The translations under genes were made by a program, and so were the position numbers. A DNA stretch of 63,996 bases, filler included, from Bacteriovoracaceae bacterium (GTDB lineage Bacteria; Bdellovibrionota; Bacteriovoracia; Bacteriovoracales; Bacteriovoracaceae), in the NCBI GenBank assembly GCA_018649885.1. It is 7 parts of 7 records of this genome, joined end to end, with 100 filler letters (N's around TTAATTAATTAA, not from the genome) between each part and the next. Parts side by side here need not be neighbours in the genome. Positions count along the whole stretch, not along the records: positions 17,407 to 30,727 come from JABIHA010000088.1; 6 more parts are not named here. One strand, 5' to 3'. Shown here piece by piece: positions 13,217 to 30,827 of this stretch. A model generated the notes under the pieces. The model ran no database searches. It was given only the letters and a program-made list of their open reading frames with translations, and was not told the DNA's origin. The number at the start of each line of letters is the position of its first letter. The first letter of the stretch is position 1.

Positions 13217-16189
13217 TTATTTATTTCTTTGATGCATCCAAGGTGAAAAACCATTATCTTTAGTTTGTGATGGAGTTCTTCCGTCTCCAATTTGCTCTTC
13301 AGCAAAAGATCCAAGTTTTTTTCTCTTAAGTAGTTTTGGGTAACCAGATCTTACATATCTTTTGTGTACAATATCGAAAATTGTATCTTGTTGTTTTCTT
13401 TTATATTCTTCATCGTTAGTACGAGAAAGCATCACTCTTACTTCAGAGGGTGACATTCCAGTTAAATTACTATTTGACGAGTCATCTCCGCCTTCACTTT
13501 CTGAGCCAGAGGCAATCCCTCTTCCTTTTCTTGAGCCCATAATGCTTCGTCTACGTCGCCTTCTCGATCTGCCATTGCTACCGCCGCTTCCTTTACCAGA
13601 GCCGCCAGCTTTAATAACTCCGTCCTGATCGCCTTTGGTTCCGTCTCCTTCGCCGCTGCCATCGCCACTACTACCATCTTCAGAAGTGCTATCTTCTGCT
13701 AGAAGGTTTTCTCCTTCAAACATTGAGGTGGTTTTACCGCTAGTGCTGCTACCTGATTCAGAAGAGCGTTTTGACTTTTTTAATATGGCCGAAAGAGCGC
13801 TATCAACAGTTCTCACTTGTGAGGCACTTTGGACCGAGTATGCACTACCATGAGCCTTTTCTTGAGCCGCTTGTGCACTTTTTAGTGCCGATTTTCTAAT
13901 AGCATTTTTACTGGAAAGAGACGCCACTTTGGCGCTAATAGCATCAAGTCCACTAAGAGAAGATCCTGATGATCCGGAAGTTCCAGTGATGCTCTTTGTT
14001 CCTAAGCTAAAGTTGAAATCGCTATCAACATTTTTTCTATTGGCGCCGCAATCTGTACTTGATGGAGGACAATTATCATCTACAGATCCAGATCCATAAA
14101 GAGTCTCGCCGTCTTGATTGTCATATTTAGTGGCTCCTGAGGCCCCTCTATAATCTGTTCCACCGTCGTCATCCATTTGCCTTAGTTTGTCTACAAGACA
14201 AGCAATGGACTTTGTTCGAGCGTCGACAGAAGAGACATAAAAGGCTTCTAATTCTTTAACTATTGGTAATATTCCACCTTGCTCTTTTCCTTTTTTCCAT
14301 TCAACAACTTCACTTCGACCCATAACTTCAAATTCATTTCGATCATTCCAATCAAAGAAGTCGCCAAAACTTTGAACTAAGGAGCTTCTATTGTCTGCCC
14401 AAGTTTGAACATCACCGCCTGTAGAGTCTTCAATCCAAGCAGAGGTTTTTTCTTTATGGCTATAAAGTCCACCCCAACCAATCATATCGAGCCAAATTGC
14501 ATCTCTTAACTTGCCTAGGCTTCCCTTATACTCTGCTAGGTAGTTGTCCTTATCGCAGCCTGGCAGTGCTCCATTAGCACATTTTTCAAGCTGTCCTTTT
14601 ATATCTTTTCTCACAATGCTTCTAAAGTTTCTGATATGACGAGCATTATAAATATAATTGAGACCTTTTTTGGGCCATCTCTTCTTACCATTTTTCTTTC
14701 TAAGCTTATTGATCGCACCGCCGGTTAGTTTAAAAACGGGATCCACAAGCCAGTTGTGTGACCCACTAAATAGGCCAGTGCCTTTACCTGTATTGGTATG
14801 AACCTTCCACAATTCGGCCACACAATTTCTTTTATCGGTAGTAATTAAGTGATATTTGTTTTCTTTTTTATTTCCGCTTGAATCTTTTTCTTTCTTTCCT
14901 CGGCAGGGCTGTGGTCTATAGTCATTTTTATCGAAGTCCATTCCTCCCAAGGTATCATACATATCCATCCAGTCTTCTAAGTCTTTGACTGAGCTTCCAT
15001 AGGAGTCTGCAAGGCCTGATTCATATGTTTGGATAGCAGTATAAAAATCGAGAAGAGATTGCCAGTAATTGTGTCCAGCTTCACCACCATCACCTTTATC
15101 TTCATTTAACTCATCTGAAGCAGACCCAGCAATAAACCGGCCGCGATCAAGATTTAGTTTCTCAGCAAGTCTATCTCTTTCTACAATAAAATCATCGAGC
15201 CCCGTTTGGCGAGTTGACTTTAGCTTTGAAGAGATTTCTGCGAGTCCCTTAACCTTTCGGTGCTTCTTTTTGTTCATTTTTTGGCTAGACCATTTTATTA
15301 ATTGGCCTTTGATCCTTCTATCACTACCTTTGTTTTTTCCAGAGCCTTTATACGATTTATTGGAATAAAATGGGAAATAATCGTAACTATTTCTATAGAC
15401 TTTAGACTTCTCAGAAACTTTATTTCCATCACCGTGGTTAATCCAAAGCTCTTCTGAACTATCGTCGCTATCACTAAATAGATACATAAAAGAAACAACT
15501 TTCATGTCATATTTTTGTAGGTAGTCGTCCATAAATTCTTGTTGTTCAGGGGTGTATTCAAACTCACATGTTTCCTTGTCAAATTTACCCTCTTGATCAG
15601 AAGATAGTCTAGATACACTTCTTTCACGGTCACAAGTCTTATCGGTTTTATTATAAATAGTTCCTGGACAGCAGGTATTGGTGGTTAGGGCCACAGCTCC
15701 CGCTGGAACACAACTGCCACAAAATCCTATATCAGTACATTGTTTTTGATTGTAGTCTGGATCAAATTTACAACTCGCCGACAGGCAAACGTCATTGTGA
15801 ATACACTCTTCTCCGCCTTTTAGTTTTTCAGTCAGTGTGTACTCATTGTCGTTAACAGTGACGGTATAGCTTTCAACTGTGAGATTTTGTGTGGCCTGTG
15901 CACAGTCAAAATTTTTCTCACAACTTTTGTAACCTTCTTCCAAGCTACAAGTGATAGCACCGTGGGAAGAATAGTCTGTAGAGCTTGTCTCTTCCGAGGA
16001 AGCATCAGCATCTACTGCTTGTTCTGCCTCTAATTCCGAGCTAGAGGCAGCGACTTCAGCTGAATCTTCAATTCCTGGAATTGGGACTGATAAGCTACTT
16101 TCTGCAATGGCAACGGAGGTAAATATCCCCGATAGAGATATAGTGAGATAGAGATTAATGAATCTTAAAAAAATGTCTTTTAGTATCAT
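13217..16189 (-). CDS. Large secreted protein with a Cys-rich N-region and a Ser/Gly low-complexity C-region
   Basis: Signal peptide from ATG 16189 (GGAG RBS); clustered Cys; S/G-rich tail; RSRRRRRRS; ends DTIFDIVHKRYVRSGYPKLL. Confidence 0.8.
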   Translation of the reverse strand: MILKDIFLRFINLYLTISLSGIFTSVAIAESSLSVPIPGIEDSAEVAASSSELEAEQAVDADASSEETSSTDYSSHGAITCSLEEGYKSCEKNFDCAQATQNLTVESYTVTVNDNEYTLTEKLKGGEECIHNDVCLSASCKFDPDYNQKQCTDIGFCGSCVPAGAVALTTNTCCPGTIYNKTDKTCDRERSVSRLSSDQEGKFDKETCEFEYTPEQQEFMDDYLQKYDMKVVSFMYLFSDSDDSSEELWINHGDGNKVSEKSKVYRNSYDYFPFYSNKSYKGSGKNKGSDRRIKGQLIKWSSQKMNKKKHRKVKGLAEISSKLKSTRQTGLDDFIVERDRLAEKLNLDRGRFIAGSASDELNEDKGDGGEAGHNYWQSLLDFYTAIQTYESGLADSYGSSVKDLEDWMDMYDTLGGMDFDKNDYRPQPCRGKKEKDSSGNKKENKYHLITTDKRNCVAELWKVHTNTGKGTGLFSGSHNWLVDPVFKLTGGAINKLRKKNGKKRWPKKGLNYIYNARHIRNFRSIVRKDIKGQLEKCANGALPGCDKDNYLAEYKGSLGKLRDAIWLDMIGWGGLYSHKEKTSAWIEDSTGGDVQTWADNRSSLVQSFGDFFDWNDRNEFEVMGRSEVVEWKKGKEQGGILPIVKELEAFYVSSVDARTKSIACLVDKLRQMDDDGGTDYRGASGATKYDNQDGETLYGSGSVDDNCPPSSTDCGANRKNVDSDFNFSLGTKSITGTSGSSGSSLSGLDAISAKVASLSSKNAIRKSALKSAQAAQEKAHGSAYSVQSASQVRTVDSALSAILKKSKRSSESGSSTSGKTTSMFEGENLLAEDSTSEDGSSGDGSGEGDGTKGDQDGVIKAGGSGKGSGGSNGRSRRRRRRSIMGSRKGRGIASGSESEGGDDSSNSNLTGMSPSEVRVMLSRTNDEEYKRKQQDTIFDIVHKRYVRSGYPKLLKRKKLGSFAEEQIGDGRTPSQTKDNGFSPWMHQRNK

Positions 16190-16223
16190 CACGGCTCCGA
16201 AAGACCTGCATTCACTCAACAAC

Positions 16224-17052: not shown

Positions 17053-17306
17053 CATACTCAATATAAAGCAATAAGAAGGCCAAGCGATCAATCTAATATA
17101 AGGTATTTACCAGGCAGTCTACTGTCAATGTGTTGAAAACTTTGAAACAATTTGACAGTTTAGTCGTAACTACTCAATAAAAAGAGGCTAGATTTCTAAC
17201 TAAGCAATTTCAATCAGGTTTTGTAGAGCTGGGATTTTGAATTTTTTATTTAATCTGTCTTGCAGGTAATCCCAAAATTCAATGTTTAACTTTCGGCAGG
17301 TATGGA

Positions 17307-17406
17307 NNNNNNNNNNNNNNNNNNNNNNNNNNNNNNNNNNNNNNNNNNNNTTAATTAATTAANNNNNNNNNNNNNNNNNNNNNNNNNNNNNNNNNNNNNN
17401 NNNNNN
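17307..17406. other. Artificial contig linker
   Basis: N44-TTAATTAATTAA-N44 (stops in all six frames). Confidence 0.98.
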
Positions 17407-17550
17407 AGTAGAATTCATAAAGCTTCCTTGTTTGTTTTTATTTTGCAATTTTAATGTAACAAGAAAGTTAAATACGGCCACGACACGTGGCCGTATGTCT
17501 TTAGAATCATGAAACTATTTTGTTAAAGCAGTAGCATTCGTATCACGCAC
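17407..17550 (-). repeat. Copy A of a dispersed element (REP-like end, hairpin, RBS and ATG of a gene lost in the gap)
   Basis: Homologous to 61906-62049; hairpin ATACGGCCACG-ACA-CGTGGCCGTAT at 17472-17496; minus-strand AAGGAAG..ATG AAT TCT ACT running into the gap. Confidence 0.7.
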
Positions 17551-17571
17551 TTTCGTACACTTTCGTACAAG

Positions 17572-18981
17572 CTAGAGAGTGATAAACCTCGAAAATTCTC
17601 TGTCCTGTACAAGAAGGAGAATGCTCCCCTTTCGCTTAGATTTTTTGACCGCTTTTTCAAACTCTGCAACAGAGTTCACTTTTCTTTTATTGACTTCCTT
17701 GATTAAAAGACCCGGCTTAATTCCCGCCATGGCGGCGACCGAGGAGAGGTCAATACTTGTAACAATAACACCACCGCTTTTTGGTGGGAATCCAAATTGT
17801 TCTCTCATCAAAGGAGTAAGATTACCCACAGAGAAACCAAAGTCACTCTCTTGAGTTTCTTGAGACCTTTTAGAAGATGTCTTTTTTGTAGGGAGAGTTC
17901 CAATTTTGACCCTAAGTTTTTTCTGCCTTCCATTTCTTACAACTACAACTGTCTTTTCCTTGCCAGGAGGTGTTAGGGCCACCATATTTCTAAAGGAAGG
18001 AACTTCTTTGACTTCTCTACCATTGAACTTCACAATCACATCTCCAATTTTGAATCCTGCCCTCTGTGCTTGAGTGTCCTCTTCCACGTCCGAGACGAGA
18101 ATTCCTTTAAGGTCTTTGATGTCAAACTGTTCGGCCAATTCCTTAGTTAGGCTTTGAATGGCGACACCTAAGTACCCCCTAGTGACCTTCCCTTCTTTGA
18201 TCAGCTGTTCTTTGATTTTTTTAACCATGTTGATGGGGGTGGCAAAACCTATCCCCATATATCCGCCTGAACGACTAAAGATTGCTGTATTCATGCCAAC
18301 GACCTCTCCATCAAGATTAATCAGTGGTCCCCCAGAGTTACCAGGATTGATGGCGGCATCTGTTTGTATAAAATTCTCGTAGTTTGCAATCCCCAGAGAG
18401 CTTCTCCCTATGGCGGAGACCACCCCCGCAGTCAAAGAGTGAGACAGGCCAAAAGGGTTTCCTAAAGCGACTACCCATTCTCCGACATTTAGCTTGTCAG
18501 AATCCCCAAGTGGGAGGATGGGTAAGTTCTTGGCCTTGATTTTGATGACCGCTATATCCGAGTGCTCATCAGTTCCCACAACTTTGGCCGTGAGTTCGCG
18601 TCCATCTAGCAACTTAACTGTTACTTTGTCTGCATCATCAACGAGATGGTTGTTAGTCAATATGTGCCCATCACTTGAAACAATAAAGCCGCTCCCTTGA
18701 ACCACAACCTTGCGACTTCTCTTTTTGGGTGTCTGCCCTTTGGGCATTCTATTTTTAAAAAAGTGATTGAATAGCTCTTCACCAAAAGGAAAAAAGAAAT
18801 GCAACTTCCCACTCATCAGTTGAGTTTTCTCTGTTTTTATGAAAACCACTGTTGGTGATGATTTTTTTGCTATATTTGAGAAAGCTTTGCTCATGTCTCT
18901 CAAGTGAGCGCTGCTTTCATCTGTGGCAAAAGAGCAACTACTTGAGAAAAAGACTATCAATGTAGTGAATAAAATTTTCAT
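17572..18981 (-). CDS. degP: DegP/DegQ (HtrA/Do) periplasmic serine endoprotease
   Basis: Signal peptide; GSGFIV, TNNH, DIAVIK and QTDAAINPGNSGGPL motifs; two PDZ domains. Confidence 0.95.
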   Translation of the reverse strand: MKILFTTLIVFFSSSCSFATDESSAHLRDMSKAFSNIAKKSSPTVVFIKTEKTQLMSGKLHFFFPFGEELFNHFFKNRMPKGQTPKKRSRKVVVQGSGFIVSSDGHILTNNHLVDDADKVTVKLLDGRELTAKVVGTDEHSDIAVIKIKAKNLPILPLGDSDKLNVGEWVVALGNPFGLSHSLTAGVVSAIGRSSLGIANYENFIQTDAAINPGNSGGPLINLDGEVVGMNTAIFSRSGGYMGIGFATPINMVKKIKEQLIKEGKVTRGYLGVAIQSLTKELAEQFDIKDLKGILVSDVEEDTQAQRAGFKIGDVIVKFNGREVKEVPSFRNMVALTPPGKEKTVVVVRNGRQKKLRVKIGTLPTKKTSSKRSQETQESDFGFSVGNLTPLMREQFGFPPKSGGVIVTSIDLSSVAAMAGIKPGLLIKEVNKRKVNSVAEFEKAVKKSKRKGSILLLVQDREFSRFITL

Positions 18982-19131
18982 AAAAACACCAATATATAAG
19001 TGTAACTTGCAGGTGATTTAATTCACTTTGTTCTATTTATCAAGTGTTTTTGCCGGACACGAATATGATATTTGATTAAGATATCTTTCTTGATCTATCC
19101 AGGTCATTATTCTGACGATTATCAATATTTT

Positions 19132-20301
19132 TTAAAGTGATAGATCGACTTTTTCCCAAGCAAGGCCCTCATCCTCTCTCCCAAAGTGGCCATAGTTTGT
19201 TGTGCGCCCAAAGATGGGCCTATTTAATTCGAGTTTTTCGATAATAGCTGCTGGTCTAAAGTCAAACTTCGATTTTAAAATTCGAGTAATCTCACGGTCA
19301 CTTACTTTTCCGGTACCAAAAGTTTCTACCATCATAGCTACCGATTGGCCCTTGCCAATACAATATGCAACTTGAATTTCCAATTTATCGGCAAAACCAG
19401 AAGCCACTAAATTTTTGGCTGCATATCTTGCCATATATGCTCCTGAACGATCAACTTTGGTTGCATCCTTACCTGAAAAACAACCTCCTCCATGACGTGC
19501 CATTCCTCCATAAGTGTCGACAATAATTTTTCTACCAGTGACTCCAGTATCACCAAGCGGGCCTCCAATAACAAAACGATCAGTGGGGTTAATATGAATA
19601 ATTGTCTTATCATCTAACAAATTTTTTGGAATGGAGTGGCAAATCACCCTGTCTTTGATTTCATGGCGGAGCTTATCAATCTCTATATCAGGATTGTGTT
19701 GGGCCGAAACGATGATGGTATTCACTCGGACTGGTTTTCCTTTATGGTATTCGAGGGTAACCTGTGATTTACCATCGGGGCGTAGAAAAGGGAGCTCTTT
19801 TGACTTGCGAACTTCTGTTAAGCGCCTCGTTAATGAGTGGGCCAATTTAATTGGAAGGGGCATGTATTCCGGGGTTTCAGATACGGCAAAGCCAATCACC
19901 ATGCCTTGGTCGCCAGCGCCGAGTTCATGCCCGCTCTTTTCGATCCCGAGAGCTATATCAGCACTTTGTTCCTTAATAGAATTGATAATTTTACAATTGT
20001 GAGTAAATCCATACTCACTTTCGATATATCCTAAATCCTTTATAATATGGCGAGCGATACCTACAGGATCAATACTGGCCTTCGCCGAGATTTCTCCCGC
20101 CAAATGGAGAAGGTCAGCGGTAACCAGGCATTCACCCGCAACATGGCCTTTTGGGTCTTGTTCCAAGATCGCATCTAAAATGCCATCGGCAACTCGATCA
20201 CAAATTTTGTCGGGGTGGCCTTCCGTCACACTCTCAGAAGTAAAAAAGAACTTAGAACAGGATTTAAATGAATTAGGGCCCACAACTTTCTCCCTTTCCA
20301 A
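19132..20301 (-). CDS. metK: S-adenosylmethionine synthase
   Basis: FTSESVTEGHPDK, GAGDQG, RPDGKSQV, GRKIIVDTYGG, GGGCFSGKD and YGHFGR motifs. Confidence 0.97.
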   Translation of the reverse strand: MEREKVVGPNSFKSCSKFFFTSESVTEGHPDKICDRVADGILDAILEQDPKGHVAGECLVTADLLHLAGEISAKASIDPVGIARHIIKDLGYIESEYGFTHNCKIINSIKEQSADIALGIEKSGHELGAGDQGMVIGFAVSETPEYMPLPIKLAHSLTRRLTEVRKSKELPFLRPDGKSQVTLEYHKGKPVRVNTIIVSAQHNPDIEIDKLRHEIKDRVICHSIPKNLLDDKTIIHINPTDRFVIGGPLGDTGVTGRKIIVDTYGGMARHGGGCFSGKDATKVDRSGAYMARYAAKNLVASGFADKLEIQVAYCIGKGQSVAMMVETFGTGKVSDREITRILKSKFDFRPAAIIEKLELNRPIFGRTTNYGHFGREDEGLAWEKVDLSL

Positions 20302-20369
20302 TTTTATTAAGTTATAAAAATGTTATAAGTCATATACAAACTCTTGAATCAAAGTGAAACTCAATTATT

Positions 20370-21113
20370 ATGAAGGAAGCACTTTTAACATTGGGGTTGT
20401 TTTTTATTTTAGTGAGTGCCGTGGGCAAAACGGATCGCTTTCGAGATGAGCGCAGTGCTTTGCTAAAAATAATTAATTCACAATTTGCTGAATCCTCTGG
20501 CACAACTAGCATACTAAGAATGAGTCCCTCTGTGGAAAAGTCCATGCGTGATACTCCTCGTAGTCAATTTATTCCGCAATACTTAAGGCGTTATAGTTAC
20601 GCCAACCGCCCATTGTCAATTGGCCATGGGCAGACTATTTCCCAACCTTTCATCGTTGCATTGATGACTGAAGTTATTAGACCTAAAAAGAGTCACGTGG
20701 TCTTAGAAGTCGGTACTGGTTCTGGGTATCAAGCAGCAGTACTCTCTCCACTGGTAAAGGAAGTTCATAGTATTGAAATCATTCCTCAGCTGGCGAAAAA
20801 GTCTAAGATATTACTTAAAGGTTTGGGTTACAAAAATATCTTTAGCTATACTGGAGATGGGTATTATGGCCTTTCCAAGCATAGACAAAGCAATCGGAAA
20901 ATACCTGATCTATTTGACTCGATTATTGTGACAGCAGCATCTTCACACATACCACCAAGTCTCATCAAACAACTTAAAATTGGTGGCAAAATGATTATTC
21001 CTGTCGGTGGTACCTTTCAAGTTCAATATCTAATTTTGGTAGAAAAAAGTGCTACCGGCGTCAAAAGCAAAAACATTCTACCGGTACGATTTGTTCCTCT
21101 TACTAGGAACTAA
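20370..21113 (+). CDS. pcm: Protein-L-isoaspartate O-methyltransferase with an N-terminal signal/anchor
   Basis: IGHGQTISQPFIVA, VLEVGTGSGYQAA, FDSIIVTAA, QLKIGG..IIPVG and VRFVPL motifs; N-terminus MKEALLTLGLFFILVSAVG. Confidence 0.93.
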   Translation: MKEALLTLGLFFILVSAVGKTDRFRDERSALLKIINSQFAESSGTTSILRMSPSVEKSMRDTPRSQFIPQYLRRYSYANRPLSIGHGQTISQPFIVALMTEVIRPKKSHVVLEVGTGSGYQAAVLSPLVKEVHSIEIIPQLAKKSKILLKGLGYKNIFSYTGDGYYGLSKHRQSNRKIPDLFDSIIVTAASSHIPPSLIKQLKIGGKMIIPVGGTFQVQYLILVEKSATGVKSKNILPVRFVPLTRN

Positions 21114-21115
21114 TC

Positions 21116-23545
21116 GTGGTTATTCGCTTATTTCCCATATTTTTCATTTCTCTGACCTCTCTTCTATACCAAATTCTCTTGATGAAGCTAATGTCTCTGA
21201 TCCAGTGGTCCAATCTTGTGACCTTCGTGCTTGGTCTTGCCATGCTTGGATACTCGGCAGGCGGCGTTGCTCTTGCCATATTTAAAGATATGATTGAAAA
21301 GAGACTTAAGTTTTTTCGATTTCTTTTCAGCACCTTATTTTCTCTTTCGGCATTTTTTACATTTTATCTCTTGCAAAGAATTCCTCTCTCTCCGCAGGAG
21401 ATACTCTGGGATTATAAGCAATTACTTTATTTTTTTATTTTTTTTGTAGGACTTAGCATTCCTTTTGCGGCAGTGAGTGCCTTCTTAGGAAGTTACTACT
21501 TGGAGCAAAAGCTTAGGGGAGGGAGGATATACTTCTTTGATCTAGTTGGTGCCGCTAGTGGATCTCTTTTGGCGATAATAGTGATTAGTGCGTTGGGACC
21601 AAAGCAGGGACTTACGACAATTTCTTCTCTTGGCCTGTTAATCGCCTGCTATATATTATTTTGGGAGCTGAAAAAAAAATACTGGGCCCTATTTTTACTA
21701 CTGACTTTTCTCTGTGCAAATTTTCTGTGGCCGTCTAATAAATTTTCTTTTCATCTATCTCCACATAAGCAACTCAATGGAGTACTTAGAATACCAAAAA
21801 CAAATATATTAAAGGAATACGATGATCCTCTTAGTAGAAAAACTGTTGTTGAAAGTCCAGCTCTTCCTTTTCGATATGCTCCAGGGCTGAGTCTGGCATT
21901 TCAGGGAAGCATTCCCGAGCAGCTTGGATTATTTTTTGATGGAGATAGTTTTTTATCAATAAACTCACTTCAGGAAGAAGAAAAACTGTGGCCATATCAA
22001 AAATATCTTCTGGAACATCTCCCTTTTGTGCTCGAACGGCCTAGGAAAAGTGTGTTGATTCTAGGGCCAGGAGGGGGAAGTAATATTCATCAGGCCTTGG
22101 CGATGGGATCTGAAAAAGTTGATGTCGTTGGCAATGATCCCGCTCTATTTTCTTTATTGAAAGAATACCCTCAGTATACAGGAAAGTTTTTGATGCATCC
22201 TTCGGTAAATTCAATTATCGGCGATGCACGAAATTATCTTAAAGTTAGCGTGCAGAAATATGATCTGATACAGCTCTCCTTGTGGGAATCGCAAACTGCT
22301 CATTTGAGTGGGGCCTACACGACTCGTCCAAATTTTCTTTTGACGGTAGAAGGAATTGAGCAAGTGATGAGCCGGTTAACCGAAAGAGGAATTGTTTTTT
22401 TCTCTCGCTGGATTCATTGGCCGCCTAGAGATTCTATTCGTTTATTCAACATAGTTATAGAATCAATGACCAACAAGGGAGTGAAGTATCCAGGGAAGAA
22501 CCTGGCATTACTTAGAAGTATTCAAACTTCATTGTTGATGGTATCCAAGGTTCCATTTACCCCGAGTGAATTGCAAAGTATGAGATCCTTTGCGGGAAGC
22601 AAGTCATTTGATCTCGTGTATTTGCCGGATATAAAAAAAGAAGAGGTTAATAGGTATAATTCAAATCCTCAGGCATTGTCCTATGAAATCACCCAGGATA
22701 TGCTGGGTGAGAAAAAACTTATTAATAGGTATAGTTACAAACTTTCTCCGACAACTGACGATCGGCCATTTTTCAATCACTTTCTTAAATTGAAAACTTT
22801 TATCGATCTCTTCTTAACAAAAAATAAAATGGGGATACATCTTCTTGATTGGGATCATGCACTTCTTTGGTTAACCACAATAATGGCAGTCTTTGTTGGC
22901 CTGATTTTTATCCTAATTCCAACTTCTATCTATTATAGGAAGGAGCTGAGATATACTCCCCAAAAATCAGTCCTGGTAAAAAAGATCATTTATTTTTCTT
23001 GTTTAGGGCTTGCTTTCATGTTTATAGAGCTGTCTTTAATTCATAAATTCACTCTCTTTTTGGGACATCCAATTTACTCGGTATCGCTAGTATACAGCTC
23101 CTTTCTCTTTTTTGCTGGGCTTGGTAGCTTGCACTCAAATTTCTGGGTTAAGAAAATCGGAGGCAGCACTCAATTTGCACTAAGTTTAATTGTGGCCGCA
23201 ATTGTCTTAATAGGAATTGTCTTGTACTACATCTTTATTCCGCTCTTAAGCGGCTTTCTCCACCTTAAAATGTTGTTAAAATTTACTCTGTGTTTTTTGA
23301 ATTTGGCCCCACTGGCATATTTTATGGGAATGCCATTTCCTCTCGGAATGGACTTTTTAAGACAAAAATCTGTCTCATCTGTTCCCATGGTCTTGGCCGC
23401 CAATGGAAGTTTTTCAGTCATCGGCGCACTAGGAGGAGGACTTCTTGTGGTTTATATTGGCATTCCGGCGACACTCTTTACAGGTTTCGCTTTCTACCTT
23501 TTAACTCCACTTTGTCTAGCTTCTAAAAATACCAACCCACTTTAA
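21116..23545 (+). CDS. Fused MFS-like / spermidine-synthase-like SAM-binding membrane protein
   Basis: 7 TM, then a soluble class I MTase-like domain (VLILGPGGG, GDARNYL, YDLIQL, TDDRPFF), then 7 TM (MGMPFP.G, AANGSFSV). Confidence 0.85.
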   Translation: MVIRLFPIFFISLTSLLYQILLMKLMSLIQWSNLVTFVLGLAMLGYSAGGVALAIFKDMIEKRLKFFRFLFSTLFSLSAFFTFYLLQRIPLSPQEILWDYKQLLYFFIFFVGLSIPFAAVSAFLGSYYLEQKLRGGRIYFFDLVGAASGSLLAIIVISALGPKQGLTTISSLGLLIACYILFWELKKKYWALFLLLTFLCANFLWPSNKFSFHLSPHKQLNGVLRIPKTNILKEYDDPLSRKTVVESPALPFRYAPGLSLAFQGSIPEQLGLFFDGDSFLSINSLQEEEKLWPYQKYLLEHLPFVLERPRKSVLILGPGGGSNIHQALAMGSEKVDVVGNDPALFSLLKEYPQYTGKFLMHPSVNSIIGDARNYLKVSVQKYDLIQLSLWESQTAHLSGAYTTRPNFLLTVEGIEQVMSRLTERGIVFFSRWIHWPPRDSIRLFNIVIESMTNKGVKYPGKNLALLRSIQTSLLMVSKVPFTPSELQSMRSFAGSKSFDLVYLPDIKKEEVNRYNSNPQALSYEITQDMLGEKKLINRYSYKLSPTTDDRPFFNHFLKLKTFIDLFLTKNKMGIHLLDWDHALLWLTTIMAVFVGLIFILIPTSIYYRKELRYTPQKSVLVKKIIYFSCLGLAFMFIELSLIHKFTLFLGHPIYSVSLVYSSFLFFAGLGSLHSNFWVKKIGGSTQFALSLIVAAIVLIGIVLYYIFIPLLSGFLHLKMLLKFTLCFLNLAPLAYFMGMPFPLGMDFLRQKSVSSVPMVLAANGSFSVIGALGGGLLVVYIGIPATLFTGFAFYLLTPLCLASKNTNPL

Positions 23546-24669
23546 AATGGAATATTATTAAGCATTAAATGACTAACCATATAATTTGAAAGCTCCTCAA
23601 ATGAATGATGGTTATGGAATATATCTTGTTGTTTATCTGCTGGTGATTGATTTGCTGCTCCCTCGAAAATATCCATCAATTCTTCTTCTGATAAATCGGA
23701 GAATTGCTCTTCAATATACGGTAAAAGTTTTTTGATGAAATCTTTCATTTTTACCATTTTTCCATTTTCACTAACGATCATTTCAGCATCAGGCCCATAA
23801 TGTGAGGCCCTAAAAATATTTTCTTTGTTTATCCAAGATGGGAGGTTTAAAGGCCAAGTATCAATACCCTCAATTTCAATGGCCACATCTTTTTTTATTA
23901 TCAAATATATGCCTAGAAAAAAAGCTGTTAATTTTACGGCCTCTCTTATGGAAGTTGGTGAATCCATTATTCGGCATTCTAATGTTGAGATTTCAGGACG
24001 TGGTCTTAAATACCAATGAATATCTTTGTAGTTTTCAAAAGTGTGTGTTTTTTGGGCCAAAAGGTAAAAATTTCTAAATTGCTTCACACTTTTAAATCTC
24101 GGAGGTAGTCCATAACTACGATCCATACTTAAAAGCCTCGTTCTGAAAGATTGAAAACCTGTTCGTTTACCATGATAAAATGGTGAATTCGCGCTTAAGG
24201 CCAATAATAACGGAAGATAAGGTGTGATACCGTTGAGAAGGTATATACTGTCTTCCAATGATTTTACATTTACATGTATATGAAAAGAGAAAGTCGATAA
24301 AAGTTTCCCTATATAACAAGCTTTTTTTTCCATTTCCATGTAACGATGAAGGGGCGTAAATTCTATCAGCTGCTGGTCAAAAGGATGGGTGCCGCCACCA
24401 CTAAGATCAATCCCCAATGTTTTTGAAGAAGATCTCAGTTCCTCTAAACGTTTTTTTAAATTGTCTGATAATTGTGACAAATTATGGCAAATAGAAGAAT
24501 GAACTTCAATTGAACTTTGAAAGAATTCTGGCCGATACCACCCCGCATGGGGAAGGGTATCTAAAAGTTGCATTGATTTATTGACAAGACAACGATCATC
24601 AGAACTCAATAATTGCAACTCCCACTCCACCGCAAAAGATGGGAATATGTCAGTGTTATTAGTTTCCAT
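23542..24669 (-). CDS. Glutamate--cysteine ligase GCS2 / YbdK-type carboxylate-amine ligase
   Basis: AVEWELQL, GGGTHPF, FHIHV, LALSANSPF, W.LRPRP..STLECRIMD motifs. Confidence 0.9.
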   Translation of the reverse strand: METNNTDIFPSFAVEWELQLLSSDDRCLVNKSMQLLDTLPHAGWYRPEFFQSSIEVHSSICHNLSQLSDNLKKRLEELRSSSKTLGIDLSGGGTHPFDQQLIEFTPLHRYMEMEKKACYIGKLLSTFSFHIHVNVKSLEDSIYLLNGITPYLPLLLALSANSPFYHGKRTGFQSFRTRLLSMDRSYGLPPRFKSVKQFRNFYLLAQKTHTFENYKDIHWYLRPRPEISTLECRIMDSPTSIREAVKLTAFFLGIYLIIKKDVAIEIEGIDTWPLNLPSWINKENIFRASHYGPDAEMIVSENGKMVKMKDFIKKLLPYIEEQFSDLSEEELMDIFEGAANQSPADKQQDIFHNHHSFEELSNYMVSHLMLNNIPF

Positions 24670-24943
24670 AATTATGCCCCCTCCGTATTATAAAAACATT
24701 CATATAACATAAAATACAAAACTATCATCTGACTTGAATTAGATATAGACCTGTCCAGATTCATAAAAAATCATATTCAAAGGGCAAAGAAAAACTAGCA
24801 CTCCTACTGAATGAATATCATCCAGGATAAAAATTGAGAAAGATCATTTCAAATTACATCCAAAACATATAATTTCCATCATTATGAAAGCTAAAAACTA
24901 TTTACGACAAAAAAAAAGATACAATGAAAATTCTTACAAATAA

Positions 24944-25014
24944 TTTGTAACCTTTGTAACCTTTGTAACCTTTGTAACCTTTGTAACCTTTGTAACCTTT
25001 GTAACCTTTGTAAC
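24944..25014. repeat. Tandem repeat (TTTGTAACC) x 7.9
   Basis: Perfect 9-mer array. Confidence 0.97.
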
Positions 25015-25066
25015 AAAGAAAACACGCCGCTAAATATATTCAAAAGAATTCAGGAGAGGAATAGAA

Positions 25067-25238
25067 GGGGGCTACTTGCGGAAGGCCCAACTTAAACAGG
25101 TTGAGACTGTTTCTATAGATATCCATAGGTCAAACTTTCATTGGCGATCACTTGATATAAAGGAGGATTGCTGGCTTCGTTATCGTTTTTAATTTGGCAA
25201 AATAAATTTTAATCTAGTTTAGGCAAGTAGCCCTTTCT
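25067..25238. repeat. REPIN/MITE-like element 1 bounded by GGGCTACTTGC / GCAAGTAGCCC
   Basis: Terminal inverted repeats; the 3' ~115 bp is similar to 26261-26378. Confidence 0.65.
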
Positions 25239-25297
25239 GTAAGCAATTCAAATGAGCTCTATCCCTTTAAAAAAGGTCTTAAAGCAAAAATCATAAC

Positions 25298-25768
25298 CTA
25301 ATCAATGCTACACACGGTATCGCTGGGAAGTGTTCTTGTTAATCCCGAATAACTGGGTCTGCCGAAAGTAATTAATCTTTTATTTCCTTCACCTGCAGGA
25401 CCACTACCGGGGTTGGCATAGCGATTATTAGTGGTAATTACAAAAGTTTTATTGTGGATTTTTGCCTTCATGGCCACTTCTAGACAGTTTTTAATAAAAT
25501 TATCAACGGCCATACCACCACCAGAACCGACTTGCCAAAAATTTCTAAAAAGCCACTTGATTTCACCATGCTCAGAAGTCTTACCATAAATTTGTAGTTG
25601 CTTGTAAAACCTACCAGCAACGGGAATCATATTATGACTAGATATAGAAATGCTACCGAGACTGGTGAAAGTATATTGCTCTTGAACCTCTCTCAAAACC
25701 CAAGATTCAGAGGCAACTGCCTGGCAAAAGGGAATTGAAAGTGCTACTAAAGATATTAGAAATTTCAT
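25298..25768 (-). CDS. Secreted hypothetical protein
   Basis: GGAGG RBS + MKFLISLVALSIPFCQAVA signal peptide (start 25768). Confidence 0.75.
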   Translation of the reverse strand: MKFLISLVALSIPFCQAVASESWVLREVQEQYTFTSLGSISISSHNMIPVAGRFYKQLQIYGKTSEHGEIKWLFRNFWQVGSGGGMAVDNFIKNCLEVAMKAKIHNKTFVITTNNRYANPGSGPAGEGNKRLITFGRPSYSGLTRTLPSDTVCSID

Positions 25769-25995
25769 TATTTCCTCCATTTTCCAGGTAATCACTACCA
25801 CAAAAATGCAAATATCTTTAAATATTTGAAAAAGATCAAAAACCATAATGGAATCTTAACTTATGTTTCATTCGAGTAATCGTTATTATACATGTCTTAT
25901 CCATAACTACTGTGACATTTAAATGTTGCCAAATGATTTACAGAGAGATTTCTAGATATAATTATCTTGGTTTTTTGTTCTAAAATGAAGAAATA

Positions 25996-26384
25996 GCTAC
26001 TTGCTCAAAATCCAAAAACTTTGAAAAAAATCCAAGGATTGGAAATCAATTATTTGGCTGATAAACGATATCAAAAAAATATGATATCGTCTGTTGTATA
26101 CTGTAAAAATAGAGCGTGTATAAACTCAATACAGATCCTGGCAAGAATCGGGGCCCAACACCGAGCGAATGGATTCACCTGTATAATAACGATTTCACGA
26201 GTTTAAAAAGAAGGCCAGAATTCTCGTGCAGAAGGCTACAAAAGGCGATTTGAGTACGTCACTATAGAGATCCAGGCTAAACTTCAACGGTGGTCACTTG
26301 ATAAAGAGTAGGACTGCTAGCAGGCATTTCGTTTTTATTTATTTGGCAAAATAGTTTAAAACAAAGCAAGTAGCCCCCTATTCC
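25996..26384. repeat. REPIN/MITE-like element 2 bounded by GCTACTTGCT / AGCAAGTAGCCCCC
   Basis: Same terminal motif as element 1; internal hairpin ACGATATCA-N8-TGATATCGT at 26065-26090. Confidence 0.6.
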
Positions 26385-26436
26385 ATTTGGATAAAAACTC
26401 CTTCATCTTTACACGACCTGCAAAAAGTACGTACAT

Positions 26437-27264
26437 TCAATCCTTCAGCAAAAAACCTTTCAAACCTTGCCAGTAGGCTTCAAAGTTAGAGAGATTATTG
26501 TGCCCACCATTTTCTACTGTGATGAAGCTATCTTTTTCAGTTAGCTTTTCAGCGACCGTTTTTCCAATTTCATAGGGAATGATTTGGTCCGCAGTCCCGT
26601 GGACGATTAAAATGGGGGCCTTAATATCTTTAATGCGATCAATATTATTAAAGTGATAACGCAGGAAAAATTTGGGGACAATGGGATAGTGCACTGATAA
26701 TAAGCTTGATAGGGTATCAAAGGGTGTTTCCAGTACAACCTTGCTACACTTTCTTTGGGAAGCAAGGTGAGTGGCCATGGGGGTGCCTATGCTTCGCCCG
26801 TAGATGATCACATTTTCGGGGGCAAAAGTTTTGGCAACTATATCGTAAATTTTTAAGGCATCGGATAGAAGACTCTTTGGTGCCACTGAGCCGCCACTTT
26901 TACCATAGCCGCGATAATCGATGACAATAACGTGATACCCAAGTCTCGAAAGCTCTACTCCAACATTTCCCCAGCTATCCAAAGATCCTGCATTGCCATG
27001 AAAATACAAAATTACTTCATTTGACTCCTGTTTTGGAAAAAAGTGCAGGCCGTGTATCTTGACACCTTTGTCTACTTCCCACCAAGACTCCTTAAATTTT
27101 GCTGGAAAATGAAATTGGTGATCCTTGCTCAGCTTCTGTGGATAGAAAATTAACTTGTCCTGCAAGAAGTAAATTCCCGAAAATCCTGCAATTAAAACTA
27201 AGGCAATAATCTGTAGCATAACCATATTATGCCATTTAGTAGAATTTAAGGCAATAATCTGCAT
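26437..27264 (-). CDS. Alpha/beta hydrolase (ABHD13/BEM46-like)
   Basis: YFHGNAG, DYRGYG, GRSIG nucleophile, HGTADQII and GGHNNL motifs; N-terminal TM. Confidence 0.92.
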   Translation of the reverse strand: MQIIALNSTKWHNMVMLQIIALVLIAGFSGIYFLQDKLIFYPQKLSKDHQFHFPAKFKESWWEVDKGVKIHGLHFFPKQESNEVILYFHGNAGSLDSWGNVGVELSRLGYHVIVIDYRGYGKSGGSVAPKSLLSDALKIYDIVAKTFAPENVIIYGRSIGTPMATHLASQRKCSKVVLETPFDTLSSLLSVHYPIVPKFFLRYHFNNIDRIKDIKAPILIVHGTADQIIPYEIGKTVAEKLTEKDSFITVENGGHNNLSNFEAYWQGLKGFLLKD

Positions 27265-27583
27265 TTATAGTCTGCAGTTATAGTCCGTGAATACCATTTT
27301 TTTGTGGAATACTTTAACATTAGAAAAGGGAAGTTATAGCGCTAGCTTTTTCTTACCTAAAACAAATATCATTTTTTCTAACAGCTTTGATCAATTTTAT
27401 TCTGCGCAGAGAAAATATTGTTGGCGCCACTTCGTCTTTATTTTGATTTTTTTCTTCATTAAATCCCCACTTGTGATTGATGTCATTAATGTTTTAAGTA
27501 ATCGTTTTATAATCCAGCAAGAATAAGGGGTATGAGCTTGTTGAAATAACAGAGTTTATACACGGTAAAAATAGGAGATTTCT

Positions 27584-28036
27584 ATGAACAAATTATTTGG
27601 GGTTTTTCTAATTATGGTCTTTGTCTTCGCGTGTAGCTCAACAGTCAAAGAGGAAATTGAAGAGGAGAAGAAATCAGTTATGGGAGTTGATAATAGGGAG
27701 CAAATGATTAGTCGTACTCGCGATATTCTTGAAAAATCAGAAAATCTCACAAAAGAACAGCGTGAGAAATTTCTTGAGCTTCACTCTGAAATTATGAAGG
27801 ACGTGGCAGAGATAAACCAGGAGATTAGAAAATCAAAAGTTGTTCTATTTAAGGCAATCGTTGCAAAAGACTACAATCAAGATAAGGCTGAAGTCCTGAC
27901 TAAATCTATTAAAAAACTCTTCAGGAAAAAGCTAGAGCTTATGATCACAGGTATGGGTGAAGCAAAAGAGATTTTAGGAGTCTCCTCAGAAGAGGTGTTG
28001 GAATTTAGTATGCCCATTCATATAAATACTTTATAG
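27584..28036 (+). CDS. Helical lipoprotein (Spy/CpxP-like)
   Basis: Lipobox VFAC; NLTKEQREK resembles the LTxEQ motif; coiled-coil character. Confidence 0.6.
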   Translation: MNKLFGVFLIMVFVFACSSTVKEEIEEEKKSVMGVDNREQMISRTRDILEKSENLTKEQREKFLELHSEIMKDVAEINQEIRKSKVVLFKAIVAKDYNQDKAEVLTKSIKKLFRKKLELMITGMGEAKEILGVSSEEVLEFSMPIHINTL

Positions 28037-28595
28037 TCTTAGTTCGTAATATATCCATAAAATGCCAATGTTTTGTGCATTCTTTTTAATTGGTACACCT
28101 CTGAACTTACTGTAAATAAAATGTATTCAAAGCACCCCACTTCCCTACTCTCTAAGTTTAAATCGGCCCTAAATCACCCGCGAAAATCGACGTAACTTCC
28201 TTATACTCAATAACTCTCATTATATCGTACAAGCAGAATTGATAATAGGCTTCCGAGTAACGTTCTGTGGTTGTTTGTAGGCTGTGGCGTAGTTCAGCGA
28301 TTGTTTGAGGGTTGGTTATGATACTTGTCCTCCGGTTGTTTAAGCTATAGGGGCTCGATGTAAGTGCTTTCGAAAGAGTTCTGTGATTCTGAGTTTAAAG
28401 AAGTGGGGAGTTTTATTGCTTGATTCTCGGGGGACTGCAGTTCCACTGTGGGCTCCTCCCCCTCTGAGAGTACCTTTGAGCCCATTTCTCCCTTGTAATA
28501 TGAGAAGAAAAGAAGTTTTAGCAAGCTTACTTTTATATTGTCCCTACCCGTCTCAGTGCAGACTAAACGAGGACACTTTGAATTAAAGTTAAATA

Positions 28596-29381
28596 CTAAA
28601 TTAGAGGAAGTATCCTTTCAACAAACCAGCGGTAAGCAGCTTCAGGATTATAGTCTACATCACTTGGTAATAATGGTCTTATGTCATTTACAAATTTATC
28701 CTCTTTCATTTTTTCGGATAAGTTCTTTTCAATGTCAGATTTTGTTACCTTACTTTCAACTATATCTTCTAGCATTAAAAAATTATCTACAACCTTCGCC
28801 CAGTCGATAATCTCAATCTCTCTGGCCTGATATAAATCAAATAAATCTCTACCTTTTTCTCTCTGGTAAAGTGCTCGTATTTTTGTCCCAATCATCTCTT
28901 CAATACAGAACATTTTTATATTAGCTGACCCATTAAAGTATTCTGACTCAATGCTGTAGGGCATTTCAAATAGGTCTTCTTTGGGAAGTGTTTCTCTGCA
29001 ATTTATTTCTATTTTTATTTTTCTTTGGGTATTGACACAAGAATTATACCTAAAATATAAAGTTAGTGTTCTAAAGCTTGTATTTATTTTGATGGGTTTA
29101 CCCAGCATTGATTTTAACGCTTCTTTTACACTTGATATTATTTCTCCATTAGCTCCTTTTTCAAGTCGATTTAAATCTATATCTTCTGAGTATCTCAAAG
29201 CATTTGGAAAAATCAATTTGTGAAGCGCTGTTCCTCCGCGAAAAGCAAGTTTATCTTTTAGATTGGGATGATTAAAAATTTCAATTAAAGCTCGCGAAAT
29301 AATTAGATCTTGTTCGACCTGCTCATCTTGTGGCCAATTTGCAAATTTTCTCCAAGCAATTATAGTAGGTCTAGGTATCAT
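28596..29381 (-). CDS. abiEii: AbiEii/AbiGii nucleotidyltransferase toxin (type IV TA)
   Basis: QVEQDLIISRAL, LAFRGGTALHKL, RYSEDIDL, KIEIN, TKIRALYQREKGRDLFD motifs; TAATG coupling to abiEi. Confidence 0.92.
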   Translation of the reverse strand: MIPRPTIIAWRKFANWPQDEQVEQDLIISRALIEIFNHPNLKDKLAFRGGTALHKLIFPNALRYSEDIDLNRLEKGANGEIISSVKEALKSMLGKPIKINTSFRTLTLYFRYNSCVNTQRKIKIEINCRETLPKEDLFEMPYSIESEYFNGSANIKMFCIEEMIGTKIRALYQREKGRDLFDLYQAREIEIIDWAKVVDNFLMLEDIVESKVTKSDIEKNLSEKMKEDKFVNDIRPLLPSDVDYNPEAAYRWFVERILPLI

Positions 29382-30226
29382 TAGTCTGGCTCCACTTGAG
29401 TATTGATATAAAGCTTCCACTTCTCATCATACTTGAACTTACTTCTCTTTATTTTTTTATCATCTTTAATGGATGAAAGCATTGCTGGTGTATACTTTCT
29501 TTTCTCAAGGGGACTAAAAATATATTCTGCTTCCTTTTCGTATCCCAAGATTTTATCCAACATATAGCCTAATCTTTGCAAAGTCACATTTGGTATTTTC
29601 GGATCATGACACAGAGAAATCATTTTTCTACCATCCCATTTTTCGGCCAAGTCAGAAAGCACTGTTGCAACATTGTTAAAATAGCCGCATACCTGTGGGA
29701 ATCGAACCAAATCGATTGCTGTTAACTCTGGTGAGGAAATTAGATAATAACCTCCTACACTTGCAACTCTATCCACGCACTTTTCTGGGAAGGTAGTTCC
29801 CTTGGTTACAAATTCAATTCTTCCCCTTTTAAATGTAATAGAAGAGACCACTTTATCTGTTATCACTTGGTAGGCCATGCTTGCTTGGTGTGAAGCCCCC
29901 CAGTGCGCAGCTGCTGATAAAAGCCCTATGTAGTACTCCCTCCCAATAAACTTCATCATTGCATCTAAAAAATAAGAGGGATGTAGCTCACTTGATTCTG
30001 GGCCCAGTACAATGCCAAAACCTCTACGTAGCATCCTGATCCTTCCTTTTTTTGCAAGCCTTGATAAGGAGACAGAAATTGATTTTTCTTGGATTGTTAG
30101 ACCTGCTTGCCTAAGTTCGTCGACAGTAAAGTAATGCCTTCCCTGCGAGATGATCTCGTCAAGATAGTCACTAAGCCTAAGGGTATTTTTTATTTTTTTA
30201 GCCATATCAACATTTTTGTTAACCAT
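29381..30226 (-). CDS. abiEi: AbiEi antitoxin (type IV TA)
   Basis: N-terminal wHTH; YYIGLLSAAAHWGASHQ, SSPELTAIDL and QRLGYML motifs. Confidence 0.9.
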   Translation of the reverse strand: MVNKNVDMAKKIKNTLRLSDYLDEIISQGRHYFTVDELRQAGLTIQEKSISVSLSRLAKKGRIRMLRRGFGIVLGPESSELHPSYFLDAMMKFIGREYYIGLLSAAAHWGASHQASMAYQVITDKVVSSITFKRGRIEFVTKGTTFPEKCVDRVASVGGYYLISSPELTAIDLVRFPQVCGYFNNVATVLSDLAEKWDGRKMISLCHDPKIPNVTLQRLGYMLDKILGYEKEAEYIFSPLEKRKYTPAMLSSIKDDKKIKRSKFKYDEKWKLYINTQVEPD

Positions 30227-30587
30227 ATAATAAATATAATTTTAACTAAATTAACATATTAGTTTATTTAATTAAATAAGTAAAAAGAAGACATCTCTTT
30301 AAATTTAAATAGTTAACTATGATTTACTCGGCTTAAAGTTTCCTAATCTTTAAATTTCTTAGTTTGGAAATCTCCAAATGGTATCCTATCCTAAAATCAG
30401 TAAGTTAAAGACTTGGCTAGCGTATGTAACATACTGTTTTTACTTAACAGCAACCAAAAGTCAATCGTGCTACAGATAGCCTTTATAGAAAGGGCTACTT
30501 TCATATCTTTTCTAACCTAAAGTAGAAGAGCGTAAACAAGAGCAGCCCGATCAGTGAAATTAGGCCTGTTGAAGCAGGGCCAATCAG

Positions 30588-30727
30588 TGGTTTTAGCAGT
30601 CCAATAGTCACCCGGGTAAGTGCCATTTAACGGCCTAAAAGTCACCCACCTCACATTTTGATATGACACGAAGCTTAATAGCATCCCGTTGTATCGGAGG
30701 AGGAGTGATTAGTATGGATATGTATGA
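30588..30727 (+). mobile_element. Probable IS21-family left end with the start of istA, cut by the contig end
   Basis: Two direct subterminal repeats CAGTCCAATAGTCACCC / CGGCCTAAAAGTCACCC; GGAGGAGG RBS + GTG ISMDMY at 30705, similar to IstA N-termini. Confidence 0.55.
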
Positions 30728-30827
30728 NNNNNNNNNNNNNNNNNNNNNNNNNNNNNNNNNNNNNNNNNNNNTTAATTAATTAANNNNNNNNNNNNNNNNN
30801 NNNNNNNNNNNNNNNNNNNNNNNNNNN
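30728..30827. other. Artificial contig linker
   Basis: N44-TTAATTAATTAA-N44. Confidence 0.98.

What the first reader, a model, noticed from the sequence alone, without database searches (positions are those of the whole stretch)
17572..23545. Candidate extracytoplasmic SAM-dependent repair system: MetK + exported PIMT + 14-TM SAM-binding protein + DegP
Seen on one contig: metK and pcm are head-to-head, 68 bp apart. Pcm starts with a signal-like MKEALLTLGLFFILVSAVG and is followed after 2 nt by an 809-aa 7TM-[GxGGG SAM domain]-7TM protein. Basic loops after TM2 (KDMIEKRLK), TM4 (KLRGGR), TM6 (LKKK) and TM8 (RKELR..KK) put that SAM domain on the periplasmic side by the positive-inside rule. degP lies directly downstream of metK. 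Known: PIMT repairs isoAsp using SAM, SAM is made in the cytoplasm, and DegP degrades damaged periplasmic proteins. Inference: a dedicated MetK feeds SAM through the MFS-like halves to periplasmic methyltransferases, coupling repair with degradation. I am not aware of this being described.
Basis: partly seen in the sequence, partly recalled or inferred. Interest (0 to 1): 0.75.

Follow-up and report, generated by a model that had tools for sequence, protein, structure and literature searches.

The report
Exported protein-repair methyltransferase with SAM supplier
A protein-repair methyltransferase that carries an export signal is kept, in many bacteria, beside a transporter-like membrane protein whose cofactor-binding domain is predicted to face outward, so the pair likely repairs aged proteins outside the cytoplasm with methyl donor passed across the membrane; the extra SAM synthetase next to it is a local add-on and the protease appears to be a bystander.

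Summary
What is conserved is a two-gene cassette: a signal-peptide PIMT (pcm) directly upstream of a 14-helix membrane protein. It recurs in 73 of 80 related loci and in 40 of 45 carriers from a class-wide genome sample. The membrane protein has an MFS fold with a spermidine-synthase-like Rossmann domain inserted on the outer face (fold search; charge bias in 342 of 342 homologues); it lacks the aminopropyltransferase acids. The PIMT keeps its catalytic residues, and 93 of 93 scorable cassette PIMTs have a signal-like N-terminus. metK is a second, xenologous copy, linked only in this small lineage (0 of 80 other loci); degP is not conserved (4 of 80, unlinked in the nearest relative). Best reading (0.55): periplasmic isoaspartate repair, with SAM delivered and SAH recovered by the MFS protein; transport, export and substrate are untested. 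Against: signal-bearing PIMTs also occur in genomes with no detectable partner. Ten literature searches showed no description. This scan noted the same gene pair before in another genome (e1-9762675).

The parts
20370..21113 (+). pcm: protein-L-isoaspartate O-methyltransferase (247 aa) with an N-terminal signal-like segment; core of the cassette
   Evidence: PF01135 3.8e-49, TIGR00080 and PRK00312 over cut-off; model matches E. coli PIMT 3lbf, TM 0.93 by target, rmsd 1.7; T89, S91, D163, G164 invariant in 98 of 98
20370..20426 (+). predicted Sec signal peptide of Pcm (aa 1-19, cleavage after A-V-G inferred)
   Evidence: hydropathy 2.93 over 11 residues; 109 of 120 nearest homologues have such a segment; family pattern basic-before, acidic-after, small-x-small site; no SignalP available
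21116..23545 (+). 809-aa, 14-TM MFS-fold protein with an inserted spermidine-synthase-like domain; core of the cassette
   Evidence: AF2 model pLDDT 91, 14 membrane helices; MFS matches Z 28.6 (NorA, 336 aligned, rmsd 3.5, model range 1-806)
21116..21673 (+). MFS N-half, TM1-6 (aa 1-186)
   Evidence: conserved E/Q19, R24, D142
21725..22849 (+). outward-facing SpeE-like beta plus Rossmann domain (aa 204-578) between TM7 and TM8
   Evidence: match to 1uir Z 22.5 over model 216-558, HMM E 9.5e-13; side from K+R bias 342 of 342; lacks aminopropyltransferase acids
22964..23515 (+). MFS C-half, TM9-14 (aa 617-800)
   Evidence: conserved E638, N763
19132..20283 (-). second metK (SAM synthetase, 383 aa from the GTG start), accessory in this lineage
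   Evidence: TIGR01034 over cut-off; catalytic motifs intact, separate clade from housekeeping copies; same head-to-head layout in G035
17572..18981 (-). degP/htrA Do-family protease with signal peptide; neighbour, probably not part of the system
   Evidence: TIGR02037 over cut-off; 4 of 80 loci; G035 orthologue on another contig
17472..17496 (-). terminator-like hairpin downstream of degP
   Evidence: 11-pair stem plus T run; consensus match only

Best explanation
The pcm gene and the 809-aa gene form a conserved two-gene cassette that likely carries isoaspartate repair into the periplasm: the PIMT is predicted to be exported by its signal peptide, and the MFS-fold protein, whose SAM-type domain is predicted to face outward, would pass SAM out and take SAH back. 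Shown: the genes, their conserved order, the signal-like N-termini, intact PIMT catalytic residues, the modelled MFS and SpeE-like folds, and the charge bias. Inferred: cleavage and export; SAM/SAH as the transported ligands (conserved acids E19, D142, E638 and N763 in membrane helices would suit a cationic ligand); the outer Rossmann domain acting as a SAM-holding or hand-over site; damaged envelope proteins as substrates. In this genome's lineage one ancestor added a second metK, which would raise SAM supply, while the outer domain lost its ribose-binding acid. DegP is a neighbour only.
For: pcm within 800 nt upstream, same strand, in 73 of 80 loci; 4 of the other 7 are cut by the contig end. 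In a 400-genome class sample, 40 of 45 published carriers of the membrane gene have pcm within 400 nt, a 41st has it frameshifted; 36 of 37 top-scoring PIMTs lie in carriers. Signal-like h-region in 93 of 93 scorable cassette PIMTs, net charge higher before than after it in 76 (lower in 3), small-x-small site then D/E in 88; related PIMTs without the neighbour mostly lack it, 9 of 39. One genome (G486) nested in the cassette clade has lost the membrane gene and the signal together, flanking genes in place. A different PIMT type lacking the clade's insertion carries a signal and lies tail-to-tail with a distant (25%) relative of the membrane protein in G050 and G058, one genus. MFS fold over residues 1-806 and K+R bias in 342 of 342 near and 18 of 18 distant homologues put the domain outside. 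Acidic residue at the SpeE GGG[D/E]G position in 5 of 349, at the general-base position in 12 of 349. Cassette MetKs form their own clade (SH-aLRT 99) and are extra copies in both genomes that could be checked. Precedent for MFS proteins feeding SAM to luminal methyltransferases: putative Golgi SAM transporters (10.1101/2021.07.06.451061, abstract read).
Against: Signal-bearing PIMTs occur without this partner: seven hand-picked Gammaproteobacteria loci, with no subfamily member in the 5 genomes searched and a fused MFS/SpdSyn over cut-off in 1 of those 5; six more in relatives of this genome, of which 5 were searched, 3 having an unlinked fused MFS/SpdSyn protein and 2 none. The membrane gene stands without pcm nearby in G808, G686, L015 and L063, and most 22-29% relatives have no pcm within 1.5 kb. 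The window's own signal is less canonical than the family's (net charge 0 before, +1 after). The outer domain keeps a full SAM-binding signature in most homologues, which fits an enzyme as well as a carrier. In G035 the membrane gene is frameshifted near residue 663. No transport, localisation or expression data.
Confidence: 0.55

Rival explanations
1. The outer SpeE-like domain is itself the main enzyme, a membrane-bound SAM-dependent transferase (methyl or aminocarboxypropyl) acting on an envelope substrate and fed by its own MFS body; the exported PIMT was recruited later because SAM is available there, or acts on the same specific substrate rather than on bulk damage.
For: Glycine motif plus acid at 339 are kept in most homologues (204 of 352 have the full pattern E19, D142, motif I, acid 339, D391, E405); the wider family is very large (6,169 clusters at E <= 1e-30) and mostly has no pcm neighbour; weak sequence match to METTL13 (E 0.14).
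Against: In this lineage the acid at 339 and E405 are lost in all four members while pcm and an extra metK are kept; no conserved third gene that could be a substrate among neighbours.
Confidence: 0.22
2. The membrane protein works inward only: the outer domain captures SAH, MTA or environmental SAM and the MFS imports it for salvage, relieving product inhibition of an exported PIMT that gets SAM by another route.
For: Signal-bearing PIMTs exist without the partner, so another SAM route must exist if they are active; adenosylhomocysteinase neighbours pcm or the cassette in L013 and G050; a periplasmic MTA/SAH nucleosidase is reported in Aeromonas (passage in PMC6302742).
Against: Recruitment of an extra SAM synthetase beside the cassette in this lineage fits a SAM drain better than salvage.
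Confidence: 0.1
3. Pcm is not released to the periplasm: the hydrophobic N-terminus is an uncleaved anchor or is skipped by a downstream start, the enzyme works on the cytoplasmic face, and the two genes are linked for another reason.
For: In-frame GTG codons at residues 15 and 18 of the window's pcm; no strong Shine-Dalgarno before the ATG; no SignalP or experiment was run.
Against: The segment is kept with unrelated sequences in 93 of 93 cassette PIMTs with basic residues before, acidic after and a peptidase-type site, the reverse of an N-out anchor; some lone PIMTs have lipobox-like cysteines.
Confidence: 0.07
4. One reading: a four-gene module in which MetK, the transporter, Pcm and DegP jointly couple repair with degradation.
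For: metK and degP are co-directional, 150 bp apart, with a terminator-like hairpin only after degP; degP lies within 8 kb in 4 of 80 loci.
Against: degP absent from 76 of 80 loci and metK from all 80; in G035, which shares metK-pcm-membrane gene, a MarC gene follows metK and the DegP orthologue is on another contig.
Confidence: 0.05

Closest known systems
Cytoplasmic protein-L-isoaspartate O-methyltransferase (Pcm/PIMT, EC 2.1.1.77; PDB 3lbf, 1jg1)
   Same: Fold (TM 0.93 by target), family HMMs over cut-off, isoAsp-binding Thr/Ser and SAM-binding Asp-Gly named in PMC11522691 section 11 are invariant.
   Different: Signal-like N-terminus, a 9-10 residue insertion in the first helical region, and a fixed membrane-protein neighbour; an extra copy beside the housekeeping pcm.
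MsrPQ periplasmic methionine-sulfoxide repair
   Same: Works like it in design: a repair enzyme outside the cytoplasm plus an inner-membrane partner that supplies what the periplasm lacks (MsrPQ role from the abstract start of PMC12503329; the membrane role of MsrQ is recalled).
   Different: No homology; the supply here would be a small molecule (SAM) through an MFS fold, not electrons; the damage would be isoAsp.
Plant Golgi SAM transporters GoSAMT1/2 (MFS)
   Same: MFS members proposed to move SAM across a membrane to methyltransferases on the far side (10.1101/2021.07.06.451061, abstract).
   Different: Eukaryotic; substrates are polysaccharides; no fused Rossmann domain is mentioned in the abstract; homology to this protein was not tested.
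Fused MFS/spermidine synthase (NCBIfam NF037959) and PRK03612 membrane SpeE
   Same: Membrane helices joined to a SpeE-like domain.
   Different: The window protein and two close homologues do not hit NF037959 and score about 50 against a PRK03612 cut-off of 472; the domain is inserted between two complete MFS halves.
Spermidine synthase / polyamine aminopropyltransferase SpeE (PDB 1uir)
   Same: Domain fold (Z 22.5, rmsd 2.9, 256 aligned).
   Different: Acid of the GGG[D/E]G motif and the general-base Asp are missing (roles of those residues recalled); membrane-bound and outward-facing.

Membership tests
PIMT (Pcm) | Family HMM over curated cut-off | tested here: met
   TIGR00080 169.6 vs 159.05; PRK00312 192.6 vs 188
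PIMT (Pcm) | PIMT fold | tested here: met
   Foldseek 3lbf E 3.8e-24, rmsd 1.7
PIMT (Pcm) | isoAsp-binding Thr and Ser; SAM-binding ExGxG, post-I Glu, Asp-Gly | tested here: met
   T89, S91, E113, G115, G117, E136, D163, G164 in 98 of 98; features from PMC11522691 section 11
PIMT (Pcm) | Methylates isoAsp in peptides with SAM | not testable with these tools
   needs an enzyme assay
PIMT (Pcm) | Cytoplasmic location of characterised bacterial members (recalled) | tested here: inconclusive
   sequence points to export but location was not measured
Major facilitator superfamily | Two six-helix halves in MFS fold | tested here: met
   top VIA matches are MFS carriers, Z 28.6-25 over model 1-806
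Major facilitator superfamily | Sequence-level internal repeat or MFS Pfam hit | tested here: inconclusive
   no MFS Pfam hit; halves align in register only weakly, E 0.019, probability 1%
Major facilitator superfamily | Transport of a solute | not testable with these tools
   needs a transport assay
Spermidine synthase (SpeE) | Family HMM over cut-off | tested here: not met
   TIGR00417 23.2 vs 249.55; PRK00811 28.6 vs 260
Spermidine synthase (SpeE) | Acid in GGG[D/E]G and general-base Asp (roles recalled) | tested here: not met
   5 of 349 and 12 of 349; window protein has G320 and S388
Fused MFS/spermidine synthase NF037959 | Score over 40 bits | tested here: not met
   no hit at E <= 0.001 for the window protein or at E <= 0.01 for P0004 and P0362; a control protein from G004 scores 74.3
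Class I SAM-dependent methyltransferase (outer domain) | Glycine motif plus acidic residue at the end of strand 2 | tested here: inconclusive
   met in the family (341 of 349), but the window protein has G339, with N340-D341 following
MetK | Family HMM and catalytic motifs | tested here: met
   TIGR01034 525.9 vs 309.4; GHPDK, GAGDQG, TGRK, FSGKD motifs present

The most novel reading that the evidence does not exclude
Bacteria export SAM on purpose. The MFS-plus-outer-Rossmann proteins (thousands of clusters, all sampled ones with the domain outside) are a general machine for SAM-dependent chemistry beyond the inner membrane, and this subfamily hands SAM to an exported PIMT, giving the envelope a methyl-dependent repair pathway; PIMTs have been paired with such proteins at least twice, and one lineage added its own SAM synthetase.
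Probability: 0.4. Interest if true: 0.88.

Novelty: new variant of a known kind. Interest (0 to 1): 0.72.

Why it matters
The periplasm is generally taken to lack SAM (own knowledge), so isoaspartate damage in envelope proteins is assumed to be cleared only by proteolysis. A widespread two-gene cassette (about one in nine genomes of the class sampled, and present in culturable Rhizobium, Mesorhizobium, Pseudomonas, Cupriavidus and Methylobacter) makes two open questions directly testable: can bacteria repair isoAsp outside the cytoplasm, and is there a bacterial SAM exporter? It would also give a first function to a large family now labelled 'spermidine synthase' or 'SAM-dependent methyltransferase'.

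Tried and rejected
Viral contigs: no relative. A third conserved gene: an apparent 48-locus family was shadow ORFs over the membrane gene; 133 of 139 immediate neighbours scanned with Pfam gave no recurring family beyond three NfeD and scattered pairs. A pcm-membrane protein fusion in L014 was an N-gap artefact. Profile-profile test of the internal repeat was not significant. Foldseek on the whole model returned only spermidine synthases; the MFS fold came from the wide VIA search. Promoter scan: no excess over shuffles. The ESM Atlas gave only unnamed or 'spermidine synthase family' clusters. Complex prediction of Pcm with the outer domain was not available, so binding is open; sequencing-run and cluster-member look-ups did not complete, so expression and the wider context of P0002/P0003 are open. 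The first large PIMT tree is a quick tree, the careful search did not finish; 47 or so cassette rows were dropped at random to size it. Literature: ten searches, seen as listings, showed no paper on an exported PIMT or this cassette; a recalled Biochem J paper on SpeE-MFS fusions (10.1042/BCJ20190561) is not held. Subscription papers and supplements were not seen and may bear on novelty.
Full report
Setting. The window is several contigs joined by N linkers; the finding lies on G000:C6 (window 17407-30727), and the same 13,255 bases occur in a metagenome contig. The ORFs are as described: a Do-family protease, MetK, PIMT, an 809-aa membrane protein, then a convergent YbdK-type ligase. The genome has a second metK (48% identical) and a second pcm without an N-terminal extension. 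metK probably starts at GTG 20283, so the divergent gap is about 86 bp.

What is conserved. The 809-aa protein has at least 1,204 homologues and a wider family of 6,169 clusters at E <= 1e-30. A genome scan returned the best 80 of 694 confirmed loci from 16 of 64 parts of the collection. pcm lies directly upstream on the same strand in 73 of 80; four of the other seven are cut by a contig end, one has pcm 5 kb away, two have none. metK was found in 0 of 80 and degP in 4 of 80. No third gene recurs. As a less biased test I searched 400 genomes drawn evenly from one class plus their centre genome, which I had chosen as a carrier. Leaving out four genomes marked unpublished, 45 carry the subfamily (two as contig-edge fragments); 40 have pcm within 400 nt, a 41st has it frameshifted, and 36 of the 37 best-scoring PIMTs lie in carriers. 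Named carriers span Alpha-, Beta- and Gammaproteobacteria and Thermodesulfobacteriota; 12 plasmid records hold near full-length copies.

The PIMT. It passes the family cut-offs, folds like E. coli PIMT and keeps the residues that PMC11522691 (section 11 read) names for isoAsp and SAM binding. Of the 120 nearest homologues 109 have a hydrophobic N-terminus. Among de-duplicated loci, 93 of 93 scorable cassette PIMTs have one; charge is higher before than after it in 76 and lower in 3, and 88 show a small-x-small site followed by an acid; only 9 of 39 related PIMTs without the neighbour have one. This is my own hydropathy rule, not SignalP. The window's own signal is weaker than most (net 0 before, +1 after). 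In the tree the signal-less relatives form one group of 26 (SH-aLRT 93, quick tree). G486 sits inside the cassette clade (100) yet lacks both the membrane gene and the signal, while its downstream genes match a sister locus: one case of joint loss. G050 and G058 (one genus) have a signal-bearing PIMT of the housekeeping type, without the clade's insertion, tail-to-tail with a 25% relative of the membrane protein: a probable second pairing, though the tree support there is weak (80).

The membrane protein. The AlphaFold model (pLDDT 91, pTM 0.91) has 14 membrane helices with residues 204-578 between helices 7 and 8. Its best structural matches are MFS carriers (NorA Z 28.6, rmsd 3.5, 336 aligned, model 1-806), and the inserted domain matches spermidine synthase 1uir (Z 22.5). 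MFS proteins have both termini inside (established knowledge), which puts a domain on the tip of an extra central hairpin outside. K+R counts agree: bias toward that topology in 342 of 342 near and 18 of 18 distant homologues (115 of 115). The domain is not an aminopropyltransferase by sequence: the acid of GGG[D/E]G occurs in 5 of 349 rows and the general-base Asp in 12 of 349 (rows include some duplicates; residue roles recalled). The family keeps a SAM-type signature (acid at 339 in 341 of 349), and membrane residues E19, R24, D142, E638 and N763 are conserved even in distant members. The protein is not a member of NF037959.

MetK and DegP. G035, in the same family, has the same head-to-head metK, pcm and membrane gene (60, 57 and 39% identical; the last frameshifted near residue 663) and a second metK elsewhere. 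Two more records appear linked by shared contig lengths (16,118 and 2,405 bases), which is inference. These four MetKs form a clade (99) apart from the housekeeping copies; further hits carry Chloroflexota labels. So the link is one acquisition, kept while MetK diverged to 60%. All four membrane proteins of this lineage that could be read have lost the acid at 339 and E405. DegP is not linked in G035.

Results against. Signal-bearing PIMTs exist without this partner: seven loci I picked for early profile starts, with no subfamily member in five genomes searched and NF037959 over cut-off in one; and six in relatives of this genome, four with lipobox-like cysteines, three of five searched having an unlinked fused MFS/SpdSyn and two none. 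The membrane gene lacks pcm in at least four genomes, and distant relatives usually do. The partner is therefore the usual, not the obligatory, companion.

Mechanism. An exported PIMT needs SAM and removal of SAH. Its constant neighbour is a carrier fold with an outward SAM-type domain, and one lineage added a SAM synthetase. The simplest account is SAM out and SAH in through the MFS body, with the outer domain holding or handing over the cofactor (0.55). The main rival is that the outer domain is itself a transferase (0.22); inward salvage (0.10), cytoplasmic Pcm (0.07) and the four-gene model (0.05) follow. No binding, transport, location or expression evidence was obtained.

Comparison and novelty. 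It works like MsrPQ in design (PMC12503329, listing and one passage seen) and like the putative Golgi SAM transporters in chemistry (10.1101/2021.07.06.451061, abstract seen); a periplasmic MTA/SAH nucleosidase is mentioned in PMC6302742 (passages seen). Ten searches, seen as listings, showed no description of exported PIMTs or this cassette; subscription journals and supplements were not covered. Verdict: a real, widespread, apparently undescribed cassette; new variant of PIMT repair, with a possibly new kind of cofactor export behind it; interest 0.72.

Noticed in passing
window 17307-17406, 30728-30827 and four further places: The window is a concatenation of contigs with 44-N, 12-base, 44-N linkers; neighbours across linkers are not real neighbours.
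   Followed up: yes
window 17162-17305, 17407-17553, 30587-30727: Repeats of about 140 bp at contig ends match the ends of many other contigs of the genome, probably the cause of the assembly breaks.
   Followed up: no
window 28596-30226 (-): AbiEi/AbiEii type IV toxin-antitoxin pair on the same contig.
   Followed up: partly
L208, L210, L211, L215, L216, L217: Housekeeping-type PIMTs with Sec or lipoprotein-like signals in relatives of this genome, with no MFS-SpeE gene nearby: exported PIMTs may be far more common than this cassette.
   Followed up: partly
L180, L191, L164: Signal-bearing PIMT placed after an endonuclease V-like gene and near an acyltransferase/AMP-ligase-like gene (labels read from sequence, recalled, no family scan) without the membrane partner.
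   Followed up: no
L054:6468-7133, L068:6493-7161: A signal-less PIMT of the sister clade sits in tandem just upstream of the signal-bearing one in two Methylomicrobium genomes.
   Followed up: partly
L013:2497-3759, L103:577-3035: SAM-cycle genes near the cassette in other lineages: adenosylhomocysteinase divergent from pcm in L013; metK and adenosylhomocysteinase about 5-7 kb from the pair in G050.
   Followed up: partly
window 13217-16222 (-): A 1001-aa signal-bearing, cysteine- and Ser/Gly-rich protein with no Pfam match, on the preceding contig.
   Followed up: no
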